Positions 10,960-20,106 of a stretch of 24,669 nucleotides of DNA are shown here, piece by piece. Both the position numbers and the translations under genes were made by a program. Under the pieces are notes generated by a model that saw only the letters and a program-made list of their open reading frames with translations, was not told the DNA's origin and made no database searches. The stretch is taken from assembly GCA_021106765.1 (NCBI GenBank), contig JAIOTO010000108.1:1-24669 (forward strand). Direction: 5' to 3'. Within the stretch, counting starts at the first letter, position 1; every line of letters begins with the position of its first letter. Source of the stretch: Methanosarcinaceae archaeon. GTDB taxonomy: Archaea > Halobacteriota > Methanosarcinia > Methanosarcinales > Methanosarcinaceae.

Positions 10960-12600
10960 TTACCGTTTCGAACCAAATATCTTACTGAAAAGTTTTCCTT
11001 TTTCCCCATCCTGCTGTCGACGGGGTTCCCTTTTAGGAGGAGGTGTGAGCTGCTCCTCATCGGACCTATTCTCGACAGTAACCGGGGATGGAGGTTTCGT
11101 TGTGGAAGCTTTTGCAACAGGACCTTTTGCAACAGACCATGAACCTTTGAGAACATTCACAGATTCACCACCATGTTTTGATTTCCTTACACGCACATCC
11201 ACAAGAATAGGCCGTTCGATATCATTGCTCACAAGCATAGCCACACCTGGCGGCAGACGAATAAGCTCGTCCTCAACATACGAATTCACGCCTTCGAGCC
11301 CTTTGCTGATCGACTTGAGATCATTGGGATTTGTCACCTTCATTATTATCTGGGTACCGCACTGTGATAGGACATTCTTATCAACCCTGGCCGGACGTTG
11401 GGATATGATCATCATTCCCAGACCGAATTTACGTCCCTCGGACGCAATGGTTCTCAACACCTCGGTACTTGCCGTTTTACGGAATCCTTTTTCAGGAGCA
11501 AAGTTGTGTGCCTCCTCTACTACCAGCATGCCAGGGGGGATGCGTCCCATCTTTCGTGCTTCGAACAGTGATTCACATAACCGGGCCACGATCATGCTCT
11601 GGATATCAGGTGGCACTCCCTTAAAATCGACCACAGACACCCGTCCCCTCTGCATTAGTTCCTCCACCGACGTAGGACTTGTGGAAAGGATGTCCATCTC
11701 ACGTATGTCCTCCAGCAGACTTATCACATTCCATCTGGCCTTACTCTCGTTATTACCAACCTCGATGATGATATCATCAAGGGAATACGTCTCCATCTCT
11801 GCCCGGAGCTTCTGTACCGACTCATACAGGATACCCATATGTGTACTAGTATAGTTGTCCGGGAAAATCGCCGTCAGCTCCTTCACCTTCGGGCTTATGC
11901 CATTTAACCGGAATACCTTATCAGCTGATGGATTGATCGCCTTGTTCGCAGGAGTATATACTGTCACTTTCGAACCATACCCCTTTGCAGAAACACCATA
12001 TTTCTTGAAATCTGCATTCTTGGAAGCTTTCTCCTTCAATGAAGAATACTCACCATGAGGGTCAATGATCAACAGAGGAATATCCCGATCGATCAATTCT
12101 TCAAGCAGGACGGCAGCAGTATATGATTTTCCACTTCCGGTCTTCGCAAGGATGCTGCAATGTTTCTGGACAAGACTGTTCACATTCAGGTGGATGGGAA
12201 TATCCGTACCATTCAGAAGTCCAATGTACATCTCGTTCCCGGACAGACCGAGCACAGTGCGAATGAGATCATCATCTGCCTTATATATAGGATCTCCCGG
12301 ACTGAATGGCGTCAGCGGTGCCTTCAGGAGACCAGAACGATCCCTGGTACCTATAACCGTTGCCTCTGCCAGGATACGGTCTCCGCTCTTGTCCTTTCGG
12401 CTACCCCCTTTTGCATCCTCGAACGAGTATGAGTCACTGGAACGAGTAATGGAAAGAACATGTGCAAGGACCCAGCCATCAGTCTCATGCCAAGCCTTAA
12501 CGTATTCTCCCCTCATAACTGCAGTACTATCTGATATTAGGAACTTTAAATCTAGTGTTCCAGTCTCTCCAAATATAACGCCTACTGAACCGCTTACCAT
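10960..12600 (-). CDS. HerA-like ATPase of the FtsK-HerA superfamily (HAS-barrel plus DUF87 ATPase, 546 aa) with a disordered basic C-terminal tail
   Basis: Walker A is ILAKTGSGKSYTAAV and Walker B is MLVVEEAHNFAP. An N-terminal HAS-barrel-like segment is present. The C-terminal ~60 aa are Pro/Lys/Arg rich. No NurA partner lies adjacent. Confidence 0.78.
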   Translation of the reverse strand: MVSGSVGVIFGETGTLDLKFLISDSTAVMRGEYVKAWHETDGWVLAHVLSITRSSDSYSFEDAKGGSRKDKSGDRILAEATVIGTRDRSGLLKAPLTPFSPGDPIYKADDDLIRTVLGLSGNEMYIGLLNGTDIPIHLNVNSLVQKHCSILAKTGSGKSYTAAVLLEELIDRDIPLLIIDPHGEYSSLKEKASKNADFKKYGVSAKGYGSKVTVYTPANKAINPSADKVFRLNGISPKVKELTAIFPDNYTSTHMGILYESVQKLRAEMETYSLDDIIIEVGNNESKARWNVISLLEDIREMDILSTSPTSVEELMQRGRVSVVDFKGVPPDIQSMIVARLCESLFEARKMGRIPPGMLVVEEAHNFAPEKGFRKTASTEVLRTIASEGRKFGLGMMIISQRPARVDKNVLSQCGTQIIMKVTNPNDLKSISKGLEGVNSYVEDELIRLPPGVAMLVSNDIERPILVDVRVRKSKHGGESVNVLKGSWSVAKGPVAKASTTKPPSPVTVENRSDEEQLTPPPKREPRRQQDGEKGKLFSKIFGSKR

Positions 12601-13615: not shown

Positions 13616-15160
13616 TCACTCAAGCTTTGCACCACATTCCATACAGAATTTCTCATCATCCATTGCTTCCCTGCCACACTGTGGACAAAGGCGTTTTTGT
13701 GCACCTATTTTCGAACGCTGTATGACACTGTCCTGGATCGTTGTTCTATTGATGTTGTACTGTGTGAGACCCTCATCCACAAATATCCTGATATCGATCC
13801 TCCTTTCGATCTCTTCAAGCATCTTGTGATAGAAACCGGTAAGTGCATCTTCCTTCTCAGCCCACGTTTTCAGGATCAGACGGGATCTTCGTTTGCCCAC
13901 CACTTCAACGTAGGCTGCATACCGCATGTCTGCAATACCCTCCGCATAGAACCTTGCAACACCTGTGAACAACTGCGGAGTGGAAGTTATTTCGGGTTTG
14001 ACCATATACATGTTCATATCCCTGAGGACCCTTGTAACGATGTCGAACAGGTTCTCGGAAGGTATTCCGAGATCTTTTGAATCCTCCTCGGCCATAAGCA
14101 TATCACTGACAGCCTGTCTCCATGAACCTTCATCAACCTCTTTGATCTTGAAGACCGGACATATGATAGATATCATCCTGCTGTTCATATCACATCTCTT
14201 ATGTTTTTTGGTGTTATAGTCATAATAACTGATATCACCAGAGACATTACATTCGCCACATTCCCCTGTGGGTCTTATCTTGAACGTAACAGTCTTGCCT
14301 TCATCCGGTTCAAGCATGGAAATGGATAATTCCTTAGTTCTTAGCATGAATACATCAGGAACTAAAAGGTTGATCCTGATGTCACCTATCGGTTCTGTGG
14401 TGTGGTTCTCTACCTTGACCTTATAGAATATCATGGCACCTTTATAATAAAAGGCAGATTTTACTTTAACAAAGCCTGACTCGACCTTTGAGGATGCGGG
14501 TCCTTGTGTTCTTTGTTTGACGGGTGCAGGAACTGTTTTTCCTGACATGGGATTTAGTGATGGAGACGGAACCCCTTTTTTAGATGAAGACTTACTCTCC
14601 CTTCTACGTTTTATCCGTCTTCCCACTTTTCTTGCCACTATAAAAACAAGTATCCAGAACACCACTACCATGACAATACCAACGGCATCCTCCACATTTT
14701 GATCCGTTGAAGAAACATCGGAAACCGGATCGTAAACATAAGTCGGACGGTAGTCAACATCGGCCTTTTCAGATACTGCCGGTATGACAGTAGAACCTGA
14801 ATTACCCATCTTGGAATAATGGTAGATATTTGATATCACAACATAATCAGCATATGAATCTGATCTTGTCTTTACAATATCAAAACTCAGGGTCAGGTAA
14901 TCGTCATCATAATAAAAGCTATCGTCCTTATAATAAATCCAATCGATCAGGACTATCCGGTCTCGTGTTATTGATAACTGCACATAATCATAATATGTAT
15001 CCACAGAAATAACGTTCAGGTAATACCTATCGCTGAGCTCAATTGTTTCCCCTTCCGTCAGTATATACTCATCCACCGCCGGGGCTATTGTAGCATTGAC
15101 AAATATCAGGTTGATCAACACAAACACTTTCAAAATGGTCCCTAGGTCTTTGATCCTCAA
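13616..15160 (-). CDS. Type-I membrane protein: signal peptide, Tyr/Asp-rich extracellular domain, one TM helix, basic juxtamembrane stretch, cytoplasmic domain, and a C-terminal double zinc ribbon (514 aa, TTG start)
   Basis: The N-terminal hydrophobic segment is ILKVFVLINLIFVNATIAPA. The TM helix is VGIVMVVVFWILVFIVA, followed by RRIKRRRESK. The C-terminus is CPQCGREAMDDEKFCMECGAKLE. An SD (AGGTG) lies 9 nt upstream of TTG at 15160. The first in-frame ATG is about 118 codons in, so the exact start is uncertain. Confidence 0.65.
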   Translation of the reverse strand: MRIKDLGTILKVFVLINLIFVNATIAPAVDEYILTEGETIELSDRYYLNVISVDTYYDYVQLSITRDRIVLIDWIYYKDDSFYYDDDYLTLSFDIVKTRSDSYADYVVISNIYHYSKMGNSGSTVIPAVSEKADVDYRPTYVYDPVSDVSSTDQNVEDAVGIVMVVVFWILVFIVARKVGRRIKRRRESKSSSKKGVPSPSLNPMSGKTVPAPVKQRTQGPASSKVESGFVKVKSAFYYKGAMIFYKVKVENHTTEPIGDIRINLLVPDVFMLRTKELSISMLEPDEGKTVTFKIRPTGECGECNVSGDISYYDYNTKKHKRCDMNSRMISIICPVFKIKEVDEGSWRQAVSDMLMAEEDSKDLGIPSENLFDIVTRVLRDMNMYMVKPEITSTPQLFTGVARFYAEGIADMRYAAYVEVVGKRRSRLILKTWAEKEDALTGFYHKMLEEIERRIDIRIFVDEGLTQYNINRTTIQDSVIQRSKIGAQKRLCPQCGREAMDDEKFCMECGAKLE

Positions 15161-15476: not shown

Positions 15477-16769
15477 TCACATCTTAGTTCCACATTGCCC
15501 ACAGAAGTTAGCTTCAGCCGGTATTGTCGTGCCGCAGGCTGGACATTTGCGAACGCTGGGAGACATTTTTGCCTGTGCAGCACCCATCATCTTCGAGTCC
15601 AGATCCTGTCTTCGATAGGAATCTTCACGTTCACGGTCTTCCACTTTCATCATAAGATCGAGTTTGTCATCCTTTGCTCTTGCCTCGCTTTCCTTGACCT
15701 TGGCCAGTGCTGCGATCTGTTCCGGTGATAGACTGCCAAACTCGCGCCCTTCGCTGATGGTCTTTGCCGTATCAGCACCACCCGCCTCAGTAACAGTTCT
15801 GACATATTCCATATCACGTGCGTGTTCCCGATCCTGCATATCCTGTTCCACTTCAAGCTCGGCGCGCACACCTCTGGCTTTGGAAAGATGCATGTCTTCT
15901 TTTAACTTAAGGGCTTCACGGGCTGCCCTGATGTCCGATTCATCCTCCAGACGTTCGATCTCAAGCTGTGATTTCACACCTTTTAACTGCTGATCCCTCT
16001 CAAAATCCACCCCGGCAGAAACTGTTGCCTGCTCTGCACGAACTCCTGCTACATCCACTCTCCCCGCACGTTCATGATCACCTTCAATGGAAAGTGTATC
16101 CATCTCTTTGAGCTCTTCATGGGTCTGGTATTCGTTCCTCTTCGCCATGACCTCTGCATAGCTTCCAAGATCCCATTGCACCGTGTACTTCATCAATTCA
16201 AGTCCCCACATGGTAAGGGTGGACTTGAGTTGCATCTCCAGTTCGTTCTCCATTGTAAGTTGAAGATCCCGGTTACCGTAGATGTTCTCGATACTCACCT
16301 GTCTTATCTCAGGTTCCAGTACTCTGGTGATAGTCTCGCTCTTAAGATGCTGGTAGATATCCTGAATGGAAAGTGTCCTCTCACCGTTCTTAGCAGGAGT
16401 TGTATAAGAAAAGAACATCTGGAAAAAATGCTTTGGGTCCTGGATCCTGAACCGCAAGAGACCTTTGCACCCCACGTTCTGATCGTCAGAGGTCCACATA
16501 TCAGCGTATTCCCATTCAAGATCCTTTACGGACGTATCCATGAGTGCAACATCGACATCTGCCCTTATGTTACCTGGTTTGAACAAACCACCTACACGCA
16601 GTTTGCCACTATCGATTATTTCTTCGACCACTCCATTCTTGATCATAACGGCCTTTTCGTTGGGGGAAAGTATGATCGATTTGGAGAACACACCGCTTAC
16701 ATCTCTTTTTGATATCACACGGGCAATGTCATCGGACTGCTTTTTCCATTTGAATACCATATTTAGCAC
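15477..16769 (-). CDS. SPFH/band-7-like domain protein with a long charged coiled-coil region and a C-terminal double zinc ribbon (430 aa)
   Basis: The N-terminal ~210 aa have SPFH-like motifs (SPNEKAVMIKNGVVEEII, TSDDQNVGCKGLLRFRIQDPKHF, WGLELMKYTVQWDL). The central ~170 aa are E/R/D/K-rich and predicted coiled coil. The C-terminus is CPACGTTIPAEANFCGQCGTKM. An SD (AGGTG) lies 9 nt upstream of the ATG. Confidence 0.7.
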   Translation of the reverse strand: MLNMVFKWKKQSDDIARVISKRDVSGVFSKSIILSPNEKAVMIKNGVVEEIIDSGKLRVGGLFKPGNIRADVDVALMDTSVKDLEWEYADMWTSDDQNVGCKGLLRFRIQDPKHFFQMFFSYTTPAKNGERTLSIQDIYQHLKSETITRVLEPEIRQVSIENIYGNRDLQLTMENELEMQLKSTLTMWGLELMKYTVQWDLGSYAEVMAKRNEYQTHEELKEMDTLSIEGDHERAGRVDVAGVRAEQATVSAGVDFERDQQLKGVKSQLEIERLEDESDIRAAREALKLKEDMHLSKARGVRAELEVEQDMQDREHARDMEYVRTVTEAGGADTAKTISEGREFGSLSPEQIAALAKVKESEARAKDDKLDLMMKVEDREREDSYRRQDLDSKMMGAAQAKMSPSVRKCPACGTTIPAEANFCGQCGTKM

Positions 16770-16903: not shown

Positions 16904-17059
16904 ATGAAAAGATCCTACCCAGTGAGCGCAAGAGTCTCAGAGGATATTAAGCAATATTTAAGTGGACTTGTGGAAATGGGAATGGCAATTAATACATCTG
17001 AAGCATTGAAATTATGCATAAGATATGCCAAACAAAAGAAAATGGAGGAGGAACTCTAA
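16904..17059 (+). CDS. Small ribbon-helix-helix (CopG/Arc-like) putative transcriptional regulator (51 aa)
   Basis: The predicted beta-strand (SYPVSARVSEDI) followed by two helices (KQYLSGLVEMG and TSEALKLCIRYAKQ) fits the RHH pattern. An SD (GGAGAT) lies 5 nt upstream of ATG at 16904; the longer ORF starting at 16850 lacks an SD. Its stop TAA abuts the next ATG, which implies translational coupling. Confidence 0.55.
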   Translation: MKRSYPVSARVSEDIKQYLSGLVEMGMAINTSEALKLCIRYAKQKKMEEEL

Positions 17060-17629
17060 ATGGGACTTACGAATCCGTTCAAGAAAGTGTCACCTGAAGA
17101 GCTGAAAACAAAACTTGCAATATCAGAGCAGAGATTGAGCGCCCGCGAGAACGAACTGATCAAAAAGCGCCAGAAGGCACGTGAACAGGCAAAGGATGCA
17201 CTCAACAGCGGCAATGACCGCGAATTCAGAGTAGCATCGCGTCGTCACTCCATGGTAGATGGACAGGTCAACACCATCAGCAGTATGGTGGAGATGGCAC
17301 AATCCATGGAAGATGTCATAGAGATGGAAACCGGTCTGAAAGAGGTCGTTGAGATCGGAGATAATCTTGGAAAATGGCAAAAACAGCTTGGATTTGATAC
17401 TGCCAAATTGGAGGGTGCAGTCACCAACATCCGCACATCAATGGAAAAGGTGAACAGTGCAACAAATATGATGACCTCGTCCATGGATGCTGCTATGTCT
17501 GGTGGAAATGAACTTTCTGATATGCAGGATTCCCTCAGGGCTGAGCTGCTGGCAGAACTCAGCAGTGATACCGTGTCTGAGGACAATTTATCAAAGAAGA
17601 TCGAATCTGAGATGAAAGAGAGTGAGTGA
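17060..17629 (+). CDS. ESCRT-III/Snf7-family protein (CHMP/Vps2-like helical hairpin core, 189 aa) with a C-terminal MIM-like amphipathic helix
   Basis: The N-terminus MGLTNPFKK, the basic helix-1 (ELIKKRQKAREQAKDALNSGNDREFRVASRRHSMVDGQV) and the following helices track CHMP2/Vps2 motif by motif. The C-terminal acidic region holds DMQDSLRAELLAEL, which resembles MIM1. A GGAGGAGG SD lies 8 nt upstream. Confidence 0.72.
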   Translation: MGLTNPFKKVSPEELKTKLAISEQRLSARENELIKKRQKAREQAKDALNSGNDREFRVASRRHSMVDGQVNTISSMVEMAQSMEDVIEMETGLKEVVEIGDNLGKWQKQLGFDTAKLEGAVTNIRTSMEKVNSATNMMTSSMDAAMSGGNELSDMQDSLRAELLAELSSDTVSEDNLSKKIESEMKESE

Positions 17630-17700
17630 GCTGACGTTGTTGTGGTAAAGTTCTGAATAATGAAACACCACACAACGTATCAATAAGTGGAGGGATTACA

Positions 17701-18852
17701 TTGGAGTCTGCAAGTTCACTGGCGGCACAAGCCCGCGGGTATGCAAAAGCTGCAAGAACCTTAGAAGATGATAACGAGAAGGCGCGGGCAAGGGAGCTCT
17801 ACCTGAAGGCAGCTAAGTTCTACAACGAAGCATCCCTGGTAACAACTGACAAGACCGACAGGAACACACAGCGCGACCTTGCAGAACATCTTCTCGATAA
17901 GGCACAGTCCCTCAAACGCTCCGGTACCCGGTATTCGGGTTCAGGAGTGAAGGAAGAAAGCGGGGATACTGACGAATCCGCATTATCTGAGGATGACCTT
18001 ATTATGAAACATACCCCAAATATCGGTTTCTCCGATATTGGTGGTCTCGAAACTGTTAAAGACGATATCAGGAAGGCTATTATCTATCCTTTTACCCATA
18101 CAGAACTCTACAAGTTATACGGACAGAAAGCAGGCGAGGGCATCCTGCTCCACGGTCCACCGGGCTGCGGTAAGACCATGATGGCAAAGGCGGCTGCAAA
18201 GGAATGCGGTGCGGATTTCATCAGTGTGAAGACCAGCAGCATTGTGAGCAAGTGGGTGGGTGCATCTGAAAAGAACATAAAGAAGGTCTTTGAAACTGCA
18301 CGTCGTTGCGAGAAGGCGATCATATTCTTCGATGAAATAGATTCCATTGCAGGGCGCCGCAGCGAGGCTGAGGATTACGCCAAACGTGTGGTGAACGAGC
18401 TCCTTGCCCAGATGGATGGTGTCGATACCGCTGATGATAAACTTCTGATACTTGCTGCAACCAACGAGCCCTGGGCCATCGATCCAGCCCTTCGCCGGCC
18501 CGGACGTTTCAGCAAACTCGTGTACATACCTGAGCCTGATCGCGATGCCCGTGATACGATCTTCAAGATCAACCTTAAGAAAAGACCCATTGCCAATGAT
18601 GTGGATGCTGGTCGACTGGCCAAGATAACAGAATCATATTCCGGCGCCGACATTGCTGCCATCTGTAAGGAGGCGGCAGACATACCATTGGGCGAAGCGT
18701 TGCGCGGAGGAGAGCCGCGCAAGATCGAAATGAGAGATTTTGTGACTGTGCTGGAGAGCCGAAAACCTTCTATACGCAGCTGGTATGCGGAAGCAAAAAA
18801 AGAGATCAGGAAAAGCGGGGAAGAGGATGTTTTCGGAGAGGTCTTCAAGTAA
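17701..18852 (+). CDS. Vps4/CdvC-like AAA+ ATPase with an N-terminal MIT domain (meiotic-clade AAA, 383 aa, TTG start)
   Basis: The N-terminal ~75 aa form a three-helix pattern that aligns by eye with the Vps4 MIT domain (AAQARGYAKAARTLEDDNEKARARELYLKAAKFYNEA...RDLAEHLLDKAQSLKR). Walker A is GPPGCGKT, Walker B is IIFFDEID, and SKWVGASEK is the meiotic-clade signature. An SD (GGAGGG) lies 6 nt upstream of TTG. Confidence 0.85.
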   Translation: MESASSLAAQARGYAKAARTLEDDNEKARARELYLKAAKFYNEASLVTTDKTDRNTQRDLAEHLLDKAQSLKRSGTRYSGSGVKEESGDTDESALSEDDLIMKHTPNIGFSDIGGLETVKDDIRKAIIYPFTHTELYKLYGQKAGEGILLHGPPGCGKTMMAKAAAKECGADFISVKTSSIVSKWVGASEKNIKKVFETARRCEKAIIFFDEIDSIAGRRSEAEDYAKRVVNELLAQMDGVDTADDKLLILAATNEPWAIDPALRRPGRFSKLVYIPEPDRDARDTIFKINLKKRPIANDVDAGRLAKITESYSGADIAAICKEAADIPLGEALRGGEPRKIEMRDFVTVLESRKPSIRSWYAEAKKEIRKSGEEDVFGEVFK

Positions 18853-18889: not shown

Positions 18890-19738
18890 ATGACCATTCA
18901 CGAAACCATCCCAGAAGACCTCCAGAGAACCAACCGGAAGACCGTGGTCAGCAATCTGAAAGAGGTCCATACGATAGTTGAACGACTTATCCATCAGACC
19001 TATCGGCAAAAGGATGCAGCTGCAAGTTCCGAACTTCGGGAGATCAGGAACAAGGTGACTTCAATGATTTCGGAGATAGAGAATACAGATCTCGATACCT
19101 TCGGTGGCAGGAAAGGTTCCCTGGATGATTTCTATGATGCCGAAAAGCAGTTCATCGAAAACTCTACCATACTGAAAAAAGAAATGGAAGATGCACTTGC
19201 CTCCGGGAAGGGGGGAGATACATTCTCACTGGACAATATGGTGGATGAACTGGGAAAAAGTTTTAACGAACGGGTGATCCTCACAGGGGAACATCTGCAG
19301 GAATACAGGGCACAGCAAGTGGAATCCAAAAGGGCAAGGGATGAAGCACAAGCCATCAAGACTGAGACAGTAACCGAAACTGAGACCAAAACCGAAACCA
19401 TTGAACAGCCTGAGCCAACTCCTGATCCTGTAGAACCTATCGGGAATATGACCATGGAAATGGATACGGAAACCCTCTCAAACTCTATAACTACATCAAC
19501 ACACTCGAACAGAAATACTCGAAATGTCAGCCGGATATCTCAAATAATGGGAATTACATATCAAACAAAACATGGAAGGTCGACCACACGAACAGGAGGA
19601 TTCGTGGTGTGGTCAAGGACGGCATGTTCAAGACCCCGCTTGTGCTTGAGACGTTCTGGCATCCCAGAGATGACGTACGGGATATCATCCAGTTCGTTCA
19701 GTCAAAAGCAAATGCGATTGGCAGAAACCAGTACATGA
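18890..19738 (+). CDS. Coiled-coil protein with an acidic Thr/Glu/Pro-rich linker; the 3' end is uncertain and a frameshift into the next ORF is probable
   Basis: The first ~185 aa look like genuine coding sequence (helical, charged), ending in TETVTETETKTETIEQPEPTPDPVEP. Beyond about nt 19470 this frame becomes S/R/T-rich and out-of-frame-looking, while frame +1 is open from 19426 and reads as bona fide protein sequence. Confidence 0.5.
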   Translation: MTIHETIPEDLQRTNRKTVVSNLKEVHTIVERLIHQTYRQKDAAASSELREIRNKVTSMISEIENTDLDTFGGRKGSLDDFYDAEKQFIENSTILKKEMEDALASGKGGDTFSLDNMVDELGKSFNERVILTGEHLQEYRAQQVESKRARDEAQAIKTETVTETETKTETIEQPEPTPDPVEPIGNMTMEMDTETLSNSITTSTHSNRNTRNVSRISQIMGITYQTKHGRSTTRTGGFVVWSRTACSRPRLCLRRSGIPEMTYGISSSSFSQKQMRLAETST

Positions 19739-20106
19739 GCCTGTGTCTTGTCAATGATGTCTGGGAAGAAGATATCATTGAGTGGGCAAAGGATTTTACA
19801 CATCAGCGTCTCATCCTGTACCTGTACGATTTGAAAAACGACATTCTCATCGTTAATGAAACACTTGCTGCTGCAGATCACTTCAGGTTCTGGCACACCA
19901 GGGAACTACAGAGAACAACTCTTGATGAGAAAATAGAGGATTACATTAATGAGATAGAGTATTTTACTGTGAAGGATGTTGCCGACAGGTTCGGACTCAA
20001 CCGGTCCGGTTCAGAGGATCTGCTTAAGGGACTGGTGAAGAAGGGGATAATCGTTGATGTGGGCTTTGGCGGAGATGCGAATTATACAAAAACGAAGCAG
20101 CAGTGA
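19609..20106 (+). CDS. Winged-helix protein (C-terminal wH motif FTVKDVADRFGLNRSGSEDLLKGLVKKGIIV); possibly the C-terminal portion of the preceding gene
   Basis: An AGGAGGA SD lies 8 nt upstream of the GTG at 19609. However, the reading frame is open and protein-like for another ~60 codons upstream, to 19426. The C-terminal ~45 aa form a classic helix-turn-helix-wing pattern. Confidence 0.55.
   Translation: MVKDGMFKTPLVLETFWHPRDDVRDIIQFVQSKANAIGRNQYMSLCLVNDVWEEDIIEWAKDFTHQRLILYLYDLKNDILIVNETLAAADHFRFWHTRELQRTTLDEKIEDYINEIEYFTVKDVADRFGLNRSGSEDLLKGLVKKGIIVDVGFGGDANYTKTKQQ

What the first reader, a model, noticed from the sequence alone, without database searches (positions are those of the whole stretch)
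17060..17629. The ESCRT-III-like protein aligns with the eukaryotic CHMP2/Vps2 helix-1 signature rather than looking PspA-like
Read by eye, REQAKDALNSGNDREFRVASRRHSMVDGQVNTISSMVEMAQSME tracks the CHMP2 helix-1/2 region (KRSVKDAAKKGQKDVCIVLAKEMIRSRKAVSKLYASKAHMNSVLMGMKNQ) motif for motif. The protein also has an MGxxxPF N-terminus and an acidic C-terminal third, as in autoinhibited ESCRT-III. It is short at 189 aa and lacks the long N-terminal hairpin extension typical of PspA/Vipp1. If confirmed, this is a bona fide Snf7-family protein in a lineage where ESCRT-III is not expected to be the division machinery.
Basis: inference. Interest (0 to 1): 0.55.

Follow-up and report, generated by a model that had tools for sequence, protein, structure and literature searches.

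The report
Known ESCRT-III protein of a methanogen
The 189-residue protein is a genuine ESCRT-III (Snf7-type) membrane-remodelling subunit, encoded next to its Vps4-like ATPase in a methanogen, but this gene family and locus type were already described in 2024, so the finding is correct yet ordinary.

Summary
The ORF at 17060-17629 (+) is real, conserved and under purifying selection. A profile of 48 family representatives matches five human CHMP proteins over 160 columns (hhalign probability 97%, E 1.2e-10). It matches PspA/Vipp1 only at the hairpin tip (16-22%, about 60 columns). Snf7 is the only Pfam family hit consistently.

The hairpin tip lies at residue 51, as in CHMPs (43-59) and unlike PspA/Vipp1 (82). 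The next gene encodes an AAA ATPase with a predicted MIT domain, as in Vps4.

The locus matches the "Meth_adaptin" ESCRT system of Makarova et al. 2024: adaptin-like Zn-ribbon protein, SPFH protein, ESCRT-III, Vps4, and a coiled-coil/winged-helix protein. An orthologue in the 90% cluster of a protein 83% identical to this one (WP_048205007.1) is listed there as ESCRT-III, arCOG00454.

The reasoning does not:
- The quoted "CHMP2" string is human CHMP3.
- The local match is weak (7 of 44 identities).
- B. subtilis PspA matches that segment better.
- No assignment to the CHMP2/Vps2 subfamily is possible.

Novelty: already known. Side observations: a conserved 51-aa ribbon-helix-helix-like ORF abutting the ESCRT-III start codon, and a 1-nt deletion splitting the coiled-coil/winged-helix gene.

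The parts
17060..17629 (+). ESCRT-III (Snf7/CdvB-superfamily) subunit, 189 aa, identical to NCBI MCD4704159.1. The AF2 model has four helices: residues 12-50, 53-110, 115-146 and 152-188.
   Evidence: ORF. Pfam Snf7 E 0.01 over residues 17-167, profile positions 4-157 of 171. hhalign against CHMPs 97%, E 1.2e-10. AF2 model pLDDT 75.7. Foldseek top hits are CdvB, CdvB2 and Asgard ESCRT-IIIB. Identity to MCD4704159.1.
17060..17104 (+). N-terminal motif MGLTNPFKKVSPEEL. Family consensus is M-x-L/I-F-K-K-x-S/T-P-E-E-L. It resembles CHMP3 MGLFGK..PPKEL and CHMP2A LLFGRRKTPEELL. Candidate membrane-insertion motif (inference).
   Evidence: Column conservation. Included in the hhalign alignment to CHMPs from column 6. 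Reference N-termini.
17180..17311 (+). It covers the alpha1-alpha2 hairpin tip, R..AK.AL..G(D/N)ER.F...RR(Y/F), and the start of alpha2.
   Evidence: Position. The best-conserved columns of the family are A44, K45, L48, G51 and D/N52. The segment aligns to both the CHMP and PspA tips.
17513..17626 (+). Acidic C-terminal helices. A conserved (E/D)xL(R/K)AEL(M/L)AE(I/L) motif resembles alpha5 of Snf7/CHMP4. A short terminal L-x-x-K-I helix is a candidate Vps4-MIT contact, unproven.
   Evidence: Conservation. Charge. Comparison with MIM1 and MIM2 consensus by inspection: no proline-rich MIM2, and only half of MIM1.
17701..18852 (+). Vps4/CdvC-like ATPase, 383 aa, TTG start. It has an N-terminal MIT three-helix bundle (residues 4-72), one AAA+ module and a lid.
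   Evidence: Pfam AAA 4.5e-44 and AAA_lid_3. The NCBIfam CdvC model aligns residues 1-360 to positions 1-355 of 370, E 2.4e-72, below cutoff. N-terminal profile hits calpain-7 MIT (E 1.4e-3) and VPS4A/B MIT. The AF2 N-domain (pLDDT 88) matches MIT domains at rmsd 0.9-2 A, including S. solfataricus Vps4.
16904..17059 (+). Conserved 51-aa ribbon-helix-helix-like ORF. Its stop codon abuts the ESCRT-III ATG here and overlaps it in many relatives. The mechanical ORF call starts at GTG 16850.
   Evidence: tblastn finds it in 37 of 40 loci at 69-94% identity, with an ATG at the same position in most. Pfam RelB E 0.052. The fold assignment is inferred from the sequence pattern.
15477..16769 (-). SPFH/Band-7 protein with a coiled coil and a C-terminal zinc ribbon, divergently transcribed.
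   Evidence: Pfam Band_7 2.4e-8 and Zn_Ribbon_1 8.3e-7. Syntenic in nearly all related loci. Matches arCOG15283 of the published locus.
13616..15160 (-). Protein with a hydrophobic (probable transmembrane) segment, an adaptin-appendage-like Ig domain and a C-terminal zinc ribbon.
   Evidence: Pfam Alpha_adaptinC2 E 0.004-0.005 (weak) and Zn_Ribbon_1 3.6e-6. Syntenic. Corresponds to arCOG15284 in PMC10936438.
18890..20106 (+). Coiled-coil plus C-terminal winged-helix protein. It is about 405 aa in relatives. Here a 1-nt deletion between 19481 and 19482 splits it into ORFs 18890-19738 and 19609-20106.
   Evidence: Single ORFs of 392-437 aa in L001, L002, L005, L009 and L014 among others. DNA alignment shows the missing G. 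EAP30/Vps36 winged-helix hit E 6.4e-4 on the L001 orthologue. Annotated 'coiled-coil and C-terminal wHTH' in the published table.

Best explanation
The gene encodes the ESCRT-III subunit of a euryarchaeal ESCRT module, the 'Meth_adaptin' type of Methanosarcinaceae. Four steps make up the likely mechanism.

1. Inferred from family knowledge. The protein cycles between a soluble closed form and an open form. In the closed form the acidic C-terminal helices fold back on the basic alpha1-alpha2 hairpin. The open form polymerises on the cytoplasmic face of the membrane, helped by the N-terminal hydrophobic/basic motif.

2. Shown only as gene adjacency and domain content. The ATPase encoded 72 bases downstream has an MIT domain and one AAA+ ring module. 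It would bind the exposed C-terminus of the polymerised subunit and extract or unfold subunits. That turnover drives constriction and recycling.

3. Inferred from conserved synteny and the published analysis. The SPFH-Zn-ribbon protein, the adaptin-appendage-like Zn-ribbon membrane protein and the coiled-coil/winged-helix protein define where the polymer assembles and what cargo is enclosed.

4. Physiological role, inferred. The most likely output is membrane budding, vesicle formation or protein sorting, or local membrane repair. Cytokinesis is unlikely because Methanosarcinaceae divide with FtsZ (established knowledge; not visible in this window).

The protein cannot be assigned to any eukaryotic ESCRT-III subfamily.
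For: - Profile-profile comparison. Forty-eight family representatives against five exact human CHMP sequences give 97.0%, E 1.2e-10, over 160 columns from the N-terminal LF-KK motif to the acidic tail.
- Single sequences. CHMP4B 89%, CHMP3 68% (161 columns), CHMP2A 56%. PspA gives 0.1-3.9%.
- Pfam. Snf7 is the only recurrent family, best E 6.9e-7. The window protein aligns to profile positions 4-157 of 171.
- Hairpin tip at residue 51, as in CHMPs (43-59) and unlike PspA/Vipp1 at 82.
- Charge asymmetry of +7 / -6 / -9 by thirds.
- The AF2 model has four helices. Foldseek places CdvB, CdvB2, Asgard ESCRT-IIIB, IST1 and Snf7 on top, with Vipp1/PspA at ranks 36-39.
- The adjacent ATPase has a predicted MIT domain. 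The CdvC model aligns to it end to end.
- Synteny of adaptin-Zn, SPFH, RHH, ESCRT-III, Vps4-like and CC-wH genes across Methanosarcinaceae loci.
- The published locus of Methanosalsum zhilinae has the same genes.
- WP_048205007.1, listed there as arCOG00454 ESCRT-III, sits in the 90% cluster of P0011, which is 83% identical to this protein.
- ESCRT-III homologues in archaea occur alongside Vps4 as a defining feature (PMC7619361).
Against: - The window protein alone is below Pfam's Snf7 gathering score (15.9 against 27.3 bits). NCBIfam finds nothing.
- A family HMM does not reach canonical Snf7 proteins. It finds only 77 representatives among 1.84 billion proteins. Against PDB sequences it gives only IST1 at E 0.24-1.
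- No canonical MIM1 or MIM2 motif is present.
- The ATPase core is as similar to Cdc48 D2 and PAN as to CdvC.
- Methanoperedens relatives lack an adjacent ATPase.
- There is no experimental evidence for any member of this clade. None turned up in the searches run.
Confidence: 0.85

Rival explanations
1. It is a PspA/Vipp1-type (bacterial-type) member of the ESCRT-III superfamily. Methanosarcinales are known to have acquired such genes by horizontal transfer. It would act in membrane-stress repair without Vps4.
For: PspA homologues do occur in Methanosarcinales (PMC8281802; PMC7619361). The hairpin-tip segment scores 34 against B. subtilis PspA, higher than against CHMP3. hhalign finds a 60-64-column match at the tip, E about 1e-3. 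An SPFH protein is a known PspA partner in Bacillus (cited in PMC10936438).
Confidence: 0.03
2. It is an unrelated coiled-coil or helical protein (flagellin-like, LemA-like, BAR-like). Its similarity to Snf7 would be compositional.
Against: Flagellin_C drops to 3 of 48 in the wider family, while Snf7 stays on top. The hhalign match at E 1.2e-10 runs over 160 ordered columns and includes the N-terminal motif, the tip and alpha5. Linkage to a MIT-AAA ATPase is conserved.
Confidence: 0.03
3. It is an ESCRT-III protein whose job is cytokinesis, as for CdvB in Sulfolobus or the minimal systems proposed for some Thermoplasmata.
For: It is in the same arCOG (00454) as crenarchaeal CdvB. Foldseek's best hit is CdvB. 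A relative occurs in a Thermoplasmata MAG (L038).
Against: There is no CdvA or PRC-barrel gene among the locus ORFs scanned. This protein has no C-terminal winged helix. Methanosarcinaceae possess FtsZ (established knowledge). The published analysis argues that complex ESCRT systems in FtsZ-bearing archaea serve vesicle formation or sorting. The cargo-adaptor-like neighbours (adaptin-like, SPFH) fit sorting better than division.
Confidence: 0.07
4. It is an ESCRT-III protein used mainly for membrane repair or maintenance together with the SPFH protein, a role analogous to PspA, rather than for vesicle budding.
For: The divergently transcribed SPFH gene is conserved. SPFH-PspA coupling in Bacillus is cited in PMC10936438. 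Eukaryotic ESCRT-III repairs membranes (established knowledge).
Against: Nothing here separates repair from budding. The adaptin-like and winged-helix partners suggest cargo selection.
Confidence: 0.2

Closest known systems
ESCRT-III of the 'Meth_adaptin' ESCRT systems (arCOG00454; e.g. WP_013898574.1 Methanosalsum zhilinae, WP_048205007.1 Methanococcoides methylutens MM1), Makarova et al. 2024, mBio (PMC10936438)
   Same: It is the same protein family. WP_048205007.1 sits in the 90% cluster of a protein 83% identical to this one. The gene order is the same around ESCRT-III: Vps4 (arCOG01307), a coiled-coil/wHTH protein, an SPFH-Zn-ribbon protein (arCOG15283) and an adaptin-like Zn-ribbon protein (arCOG15284).
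   Different: In this window the ProX gene and the second adaptin-GOLD gene of the M. zhilinae locus are not present next to the module. The coiled-coil/wH gene carries a 1-nt deletion. The small RHH-like ORF upstream of ESCRT-III is not in the published locus table. The paper's text calls the clade 'Methanobacteriales', but its representatives are Methanosarcinaceae.
Eukaryotic ESCRT-III (CHMP1-7 / Snf7, Vps2, Vps24, Vps20; Pfam PF03357)
   Same: The helix order matches. The hairpin tip is at about residue 50 with the AK.AL..G motif. The N-terminal hydrophobic-basic motif is followed by (S/T)P.E. Alpha5 is acidic, of the type ExLxAELxxL. The protein is small, and it is partnered with a MIT-AAA ATPase.
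   Different: Identity is only about 12% in the profile alignment. The protein is below Pfam's threshold on its own. It has no canonical MIM1 or MIM2. Only one ESCRT-III gene was found in each Methanosarcinaceae locus examined, rather than A-type and B-type paralogues. It cannot be assigned to the CHMP2/Vps2 group.
Crenarchaeal CdvB / CdvB1-3 with CdvC (Vps4) and CdvA
   Same: These give the best Foldseek matches (9s9j, 9s98). They share the arCOG. They have an adjacent Vps4-like ATPase with a MIT domain similar to S. solfataricus Vps4 (2v6y, 2w2u).
   Different: This protein has no C-terminal winged-helix domain; a winged helix sits on a separate protein. There is no CdvA, no proline-rich MIM2, and the host is expected to divide with FtsZ.
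PspA / Vipp1 (IM30; Pfam PF04012)
   Same: It shares superfamily-level similarity at the hairpin tip, an MG(L/I)F start, and an SPFH partner in some bacterial loci.
   Different: The N-terminal arm is about 30 residues shorter and has no alpha0. The profile match is confined to about 60 columns at 8-22% probability. The partner is Vps4-like rather than PspF, PspBC or LiaI.

Membership tests
ESCRT-III / Snf7 family (PF03357; arCOG00454) | Sequence-profile similarity across the alpha1-alpha5 core | tested here: met
   hhalign of the family profile against CHMPs gives 97%, E 1.2e-10, 160 columns. Snf7 is the only recurrent Pfam hit, best E 6.9e-7. Caveat: the window protein alone scores 15.9 bits, below the gathering score of 27.3.
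ESCRT-III / Snf7 family (PF03357; arCOG00454) | Long alpha1-alpha2 hairpin followed by shorter helices in a protein of about 200 aa, with the tip near residue 50 | tested here: met
ESCRT-III / Snf7 family (PF03357; arCOG00454) | Basic N-terminal part and acidic C-terminal part (basis of autoinhibition) | tested here: met
   Net charge is +7 (residues 1-63), -6 (64-126) and -9 (127-189). Autoinhibition itself was not tested.
ESCRT-III / Snf7 family (PF03357; arCOG00454) | Occurs with a Vps4-type MIT-AAA ATPase | tested here: met
   The gene 72 bases downstream encodes a MIT domain and an AAA module. It is adjacent in most Methanosarcinaceae loci. It is not adjacent in Methanoperedens.
ESCRT-III / Snf7 family (PF03357; arCOG00454) | C-terminal MIT-interacting motif (MIM1 helix or MIM2 proline-rich) | tested here: inconclusive
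   There is no proline after residue 12, so no MIM2. The conserved terminal L-x-x-K-I matches only the first half of MIM1, (D/E)xxLxxRLxxL(K/R). Binding could not be modelled.
ESCRT-III / Snf7 family (PF03357; arCOG00454) | Polymerises on membranes and is disassembled by Vps4 | not testable with these tools
   This is a biochemical property. No experimental paper on this clade was found.
Eukaryotic CHMP2/Vps2 subgroup (A-type, Vps2/24/46) | Closer to Vps2/24/46 than to Vps20/32/60 | tested here: inconclusive
   A2 against CHMP1B/2A/3 gives 96.2%, E 2.5e-9. Against CHMP4B/6 it gives 95.2%, E 2.7e-8. The narrower profile A1 leans to A-type (85% against 16%), but the best single sequence is CHMP4B. 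The reference sets are tiny and no tree was built.
Eukaryotic CHMP2/Vps2 subgroup (A-type, Vps2/24/46) | Canonical C-terminal MIM1 | tested here: not met
The full consensus is absent.
PspA / Vipp1 (PF04012) | Profile match to PspA_IM30 over the hairpin and alpha3-5 | tested here: not met
   hhalign gives 8-22% over 59-64 columns only. PspA_IM30 is not in the Pfam lists.
PspA / Vipp1 (PF04012) | N-terminal amphipathic alpha0 and a long alpha1, with the tip near residue 82 | tested here: not met
   The tip is at residue 51. Only about 11 residues precede alpha1.
Crenarchaeal CdvB | C-terminal winged-helix domain and a CdvA partner | tested here: not met
   The protein ends after the acidic helices. 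No CdvA or PRC-barrel hit appears among the locus ORFs scanned. The winged helix is on the separate 18890-20106 gene.
'Meth_adaptin' ESCRT system (Makarova et al. 2024) | Locus with Vps4, ESCRT-III, an SPFH-coiled-coil-Zn-ribbon protein, an adaptin-appendage-like Zn-ribbon protein and a coiled-coil/wH protein | tested here: met
   All five are present in the window and syntenic in relatives. They match the published M. zhilinae table. ProX and the GOLD-fused adaptin are not in this window.

The most novel reading that the evidence does not exclude
The conserved 51-aa ribbon-helix-helix-like protein (16904-17059) is an unrecognised component of this ESCRT module. Its stop codon abuts or overlaps the ESCRT-III start codon in 37 of 40 loci, and it is missing from the published locus table. 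It could be a dedicated transcriptional regulator, or a small partner made in step with ESCRT-III. Each Methanosarcinaceae locus examined carries a single ESCRT-III gene. If there is no second paralogue elsewhere in these genomes, this would be a one-subunit ESCRT-III/Vps4 machine with its own regulator in an FtsZ-dividing methanogen.
Probability: 0.3. Interest if true: 0.35.

Novelty: already known. Interest (0 to 1): 0.15.

Why it matters
ESCRT-III with Vps4 in FtsZ-dividing euryarchaea bears on two questions. One is what the ancestral archaeal ESCRT machinery did: sorting or vesicle budding, or division. The other is how few parts such a machine needs. That argument has already been made for exactly this locus type by Makarova et al. 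2024.

This window adds one more member, from an uncultured Methanosarcinaceae MAG. It also supplies a clean negative answer to the PspA alternative, and two small leads: the coupled RHH-like ORF and the lack of a canonical MIM. The system remains experimentally untouched. Cultured relatives such as Methanococcoides, Methanolobus and Methanohalophilus carry it, which would make it approachable.

Tried and rejected
- A family HMM against PDB sequences gave only IST1 at E 0.24-1 and nothing significant. A single-sequence search gave nothing relevant.
- The PspA database search returned only close relatives of E. coli and B. subtilis PspA among the 120 proteins listed. It did not deepen the PspA profile.
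  - I therefore added Nostoc Vipp1 copied from a PDB alignment.
Results with three validated sequences and with five sequences agree.
- The N-terminal coiled-coil domain of the 18890-20106 protein was tested as a possible second, CdvB-like ESCRT-III domain. hhalign gave under 1% against the family, CHMPs and PspA, so this was rejected.
- An inverted repeat between the ESCRT-III and ATPase genes (about 17634-17678) folds no better than shuffles (z -1.07), so it was dropped.
- The sigma-70 and terminator scans found about as many sites as in shuffled sequence, and the tool states it does not cover organisms with other promoter types.
A single-sequence run was used instead.
- The Flagellin_C hits were treated as compositional, because they fall to 3 of 48 in the wider family.
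Full report
**What is there**

The window is a whole 24,669-nt contig of an uncultured Methanosarcinaceae archaeon. The protein of interest is identical to NCBI MCD4704159.1, "hypothetical protein K8R64_07710", recorded on a contig of that length. Other genes in the window are archaeal housekeeping genes: TFB, thermosome, RIO kinase, DUF2119 and DUF555.

It has an ATG start and 189 codons, and begins MGLTNPFKK. It is a real gene:
- Homologues 46-93% identical occur in 40 genomes of Methanosarcinaceae, Methanoperedens, a Thermoplasmata MAG and an unclassified archaeon.
- Nucleotide differences pile up at third codon positions, for example 40/14/99 against L002.

**Checking the observation**

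The quoted segment is residues 41-84. The descriptive points hold:
- The C-terminal third is acidic (net -9, pI 4.15) and the first third is basic (net +7, pI 10.4).
- The N-terminal motif is real and conserved, M-x-L/I-F-K-K-x-S/T-P-E-E-L.

The comparison string is mislabelled.

The ungapped by-eye match has 7 identities in 44 and a BLOSUM62 score of +6. About 1% of shuffles reach that score. The same segment scores 37 against CHMP6 and 34 against B. subtilis PspA.

It also aligns that tip to PspA. The motif AK.AL..G(D/N)E belongs to the whole ESCRT-III/PspA superfamily. It cannot by itself decide between Snf7 and PspA.

**Snf7 or PspA**

The window protein alone gives a sub-threshold but nearly full-length Pfam Snf7 match: E 0.01, 15.9 bits against a gathering score of 27.3, residues 17-167 on profile positions 4-157 of 171.

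Across the family, Snf7 is the only Pfam model hit repeatedly: 22 of 28 close members and 17 of 48 representatives, best E 6.9e-7. PspA_IM30 and LemA do not appear in the lists.

An exhaustive HMM search found only 77 representatives among 1.84 billion proteins. All full-length members are about 185-230 aa, so this is a narrow, divergent clade.

Profile-profile comparison of 48 representatives:

| Reference set | Probability | E-value | Columns |
|---|---|---|---|
| Five validated human CHMPs | 97.0% | 1.2e-10 | 160 |
| PspA/Vipp1, 2 sequences | 8.4% | 4.1e-3 | 60 |
| PspA/Vipp1, 3 sequences | 15.7% | 1.7e-3 | 59 |
| PspA/Vipp1, 5 sequences | 21.7% | 1e-3 | 64 |

The PspA matches sit only at the tip. 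The CHMP-versus-PspA control gives 5-16%, so this family is as far from PspA as CHMPs are.

At equal depth of one sequence, CHMP4B, CHMP3 and CHMP2A give 89%, 68% and 56%. The two PspA sequences give 0.1% and 3.9%.

A simple architectural discriminator agrees. The hairpin tip is at residue 51 here, 43-59 in CHMPs and 82 in PspA/Vipp1.

**Structure**

The AF2 model (pLDDT 75.7) has helices at 12-50, 53-110, 115-146 and 152-188. Foldseek ranks S. islandicus CdvB, CdvB2, Asgard ESCRT-IIIB, IST1/CHMP1B and Snf7 first, and Vipp1/PspA at 36-39. No hit is better than E 0.015.

**No CHMP2 assignment**

A-type references (CHMP1B/2A/3) give 96.2% and B-type references (CHMP4B/6) give 95.2%. The C-terminus has neither a full MIM1 nor a proline-rich MIM2.

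It does carry a conserved (E/D)xL(R/K)AEL(M/L)AE(I/L) helix that resembles alpha5 of Snf7/CHMP4. After it comes a short L-x-x-K-I helix. The resemblance to alpha5 and the MIM comparison are by inspection.

**Context**

The next gene, 72 bases downstream (17701-18852), encodes a single-module AAA ATPase (Pfam AAA 4.5e-44). The NCBIfam CdvC model aligns to it end to end, below that model's cutoff.

Its N-terminal 75 residues behave as a MIT domain:
- As a family profile they hit calpain-7 MIT (E 1.4e-3) and then VPS4A/B MIT entries.
- A confident model (pLDDT 88, three helices) superposes on Vps4, MITD1 and S. solfataricus Vps4 MIT domains at 0.9-2 A.

The ATPase core itself is no closer to CdvC than to Cdc48 D2 or PAN.

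Around these two genes lie:
- an adaptin-appendage-like Zn-ribbon protein with a hydrophobic, probably membrane-spanning, segment (13616-15160, -);
- an SPFH-coiled-coil-Zn-ribbon protein (15477-16769, -);
- a small RHH-like ORF (16904-17059, +);
- a coiled-coil/winged-helix gene (18890-20106, +).

This order is conserved across Methanosarcinaceae loci.

**What is known**

Makarova et al. 2024 (mBio, PMC10936438) describe exactly this module as the "Meth_adaptin" ESCRT clade, with Methanosalsum zhilinae as the example. [quoted passage not shown]

WP_048205007.1 of Methanococcoides methylutens MM1 is in their ESCRT-III list. It belongs to the 90% cluster of P0011, which is 83% identical to the window protein. 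UniRef already names orthologues "Snf7 family protein".

Liu et al. 2021 (PMC8281802) noted two things: Snf7-type ESCRT-III in Euryarchaeota, crediting Makarova et al. 2010, and horizontally acquired PspA in Methanosarcinales.

The paper's text calls the clade "Methanobacteriales", whereas its representatives are Methanosarcinaceae.

No experimental work on this clade turned up in the searches run.

**Mechanism**

Shown here: family membership by profile, the predicted helical architecture, charge asymmetry, adjacency to a MIT-AAA ATPase, and conserved synteny with SPFH, adaptin-like and winged-helix proteins.

Inferred from family knowledge: a closed-to-open switch, polymerisation on the membrane through the N-terminal motif and basic alpha1, and subunit extraction by the ATPase through a C-terminal contact.

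Inferred from synteny and the published analysis: the accessory proteins handle site and cargo selection.

The output is probably vesicle budding, sorting or repair rather than division, because the lineage has FtsZ (established knowledge; not visible in the window).

**Side observations**

1. The coiled-coil/wH gene is a single ORF of 392-437 aa in relatives. Here it is split by a missing G between 19481 and 19482. This is either an assembly error or a real inactivation.
2. The 51-aa RHH-like ORF is 69-94% identical in 37 loci. Its stop abuts or overlaps the ESCRT-III ATG. It is absent from the published locus table, and terms such as RHH, ribbon-helix-helix and CopG do not occur in the paper's main text.
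3. One uncultured archaeon (L039) has four tandem ESCRT-III paralogues.
4. Methanoperedens loci lack an adjacent ATPase.

**Verdict**

The feature is already known, so interest is low.

Noticed in passing
window 19481/19482 (gene 18890-20106, +): A single-base deletion relative to the closest relative (L001: CTCTCAAGACTC; window: CTCTCAA-ACTC) splits the coiled-coil/winged-helix gene into two overlapping ORFs, 18890-19738 and 19609-20106. Relatives have one ORF of 392-437 aa. This is either an assembly error or real inactivation.
   Followed up: partly
window 16904-17059 (+): A conserved 51-aa ORF, M.RSYPVSARVSED.K.YL..LVE.GIAIN.SEALK.CIRYAKQKKMEEEL, with a ribbon-helix-helix-like pattern. Its stop abuts or overlaps the ESCRT-III ATG. 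It is present in 37 of 40 related loci at 69-94% identity. It is not listed in the published M. zhilinae locus table. Pfam gives only RelB at E 0.05.
   Followed up: partly
L039:3652-6019: An uncultured archaeon carries four tandem paralogues of this ESCRT-III family, 38-48% identical to the window protein. They sit between a winged-helix gene and the Vps4-like ATPase, with an SPFH gene upstream. Methanosarcinaceae loci have one copy.
   Followed up: no
L033-L037 (Methanoperedens and related); L033:6125-7972: These loci keep the adaptin-like, SPFH, RHH and ESCRT-III genes. In those that extend several kb past ESCRT-III (L033, L034), no AAA ATPase lies within about 5 kb downstream. In L033 the downstream ORFs look like OB-fold/RPA-type proteins (by eye, not tested). 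Whether Vps4 is elsewhere in these genomes is unknown.
   Followed up: partly
L032:1441-2476 and L030: A two-gene cassette (159 aa and 192 aa) lies between ESCRT-III and the Vps4-like gene in L032. In L030 a gap of similar size separates the two genes. The cassette was not identified.
   Followed up: no
window 17701-18852 (+): The Vps4-like ATPase starts at TTG, with a GGAGGG motif upstream. Its AAA core scores as high against Cdc48/p97 D2 and PAN as against CdvC. Only the MIT domain and the single-module architecture mark it as Vps4-like.
   Followed up: yes
window 17060-17629 (residues about 115-150): Fourteen of 28 close family members hit Pfam Flagellin_C (best E 9.3e-5). The hits fall to 3 of 48 in the wider family, so they are probably compositional, possibly reflecting the Ser/Thr/Asn/Met-rich helix near residues 115-150. 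The matched region was not checked.
   Followed up: partly
PMC10936438 text against its tables: The paper describes the Meth_adaptin clade as 'Methanobacteriales'. All listed representatives (Methanosalsum, Methanococcoides, Methanohalophilus, Methanolobus) are Methanosarcinaceae.
   Followed up: yes
window 10960-12600 (-): A HerA-type ATPase (HAS barrel + DUF87) lies about 1 kb beyond the adaptin-like gene, with a TP_methylase-family gene between them. No link to the ESCRT module was examined.
   Followed up: no
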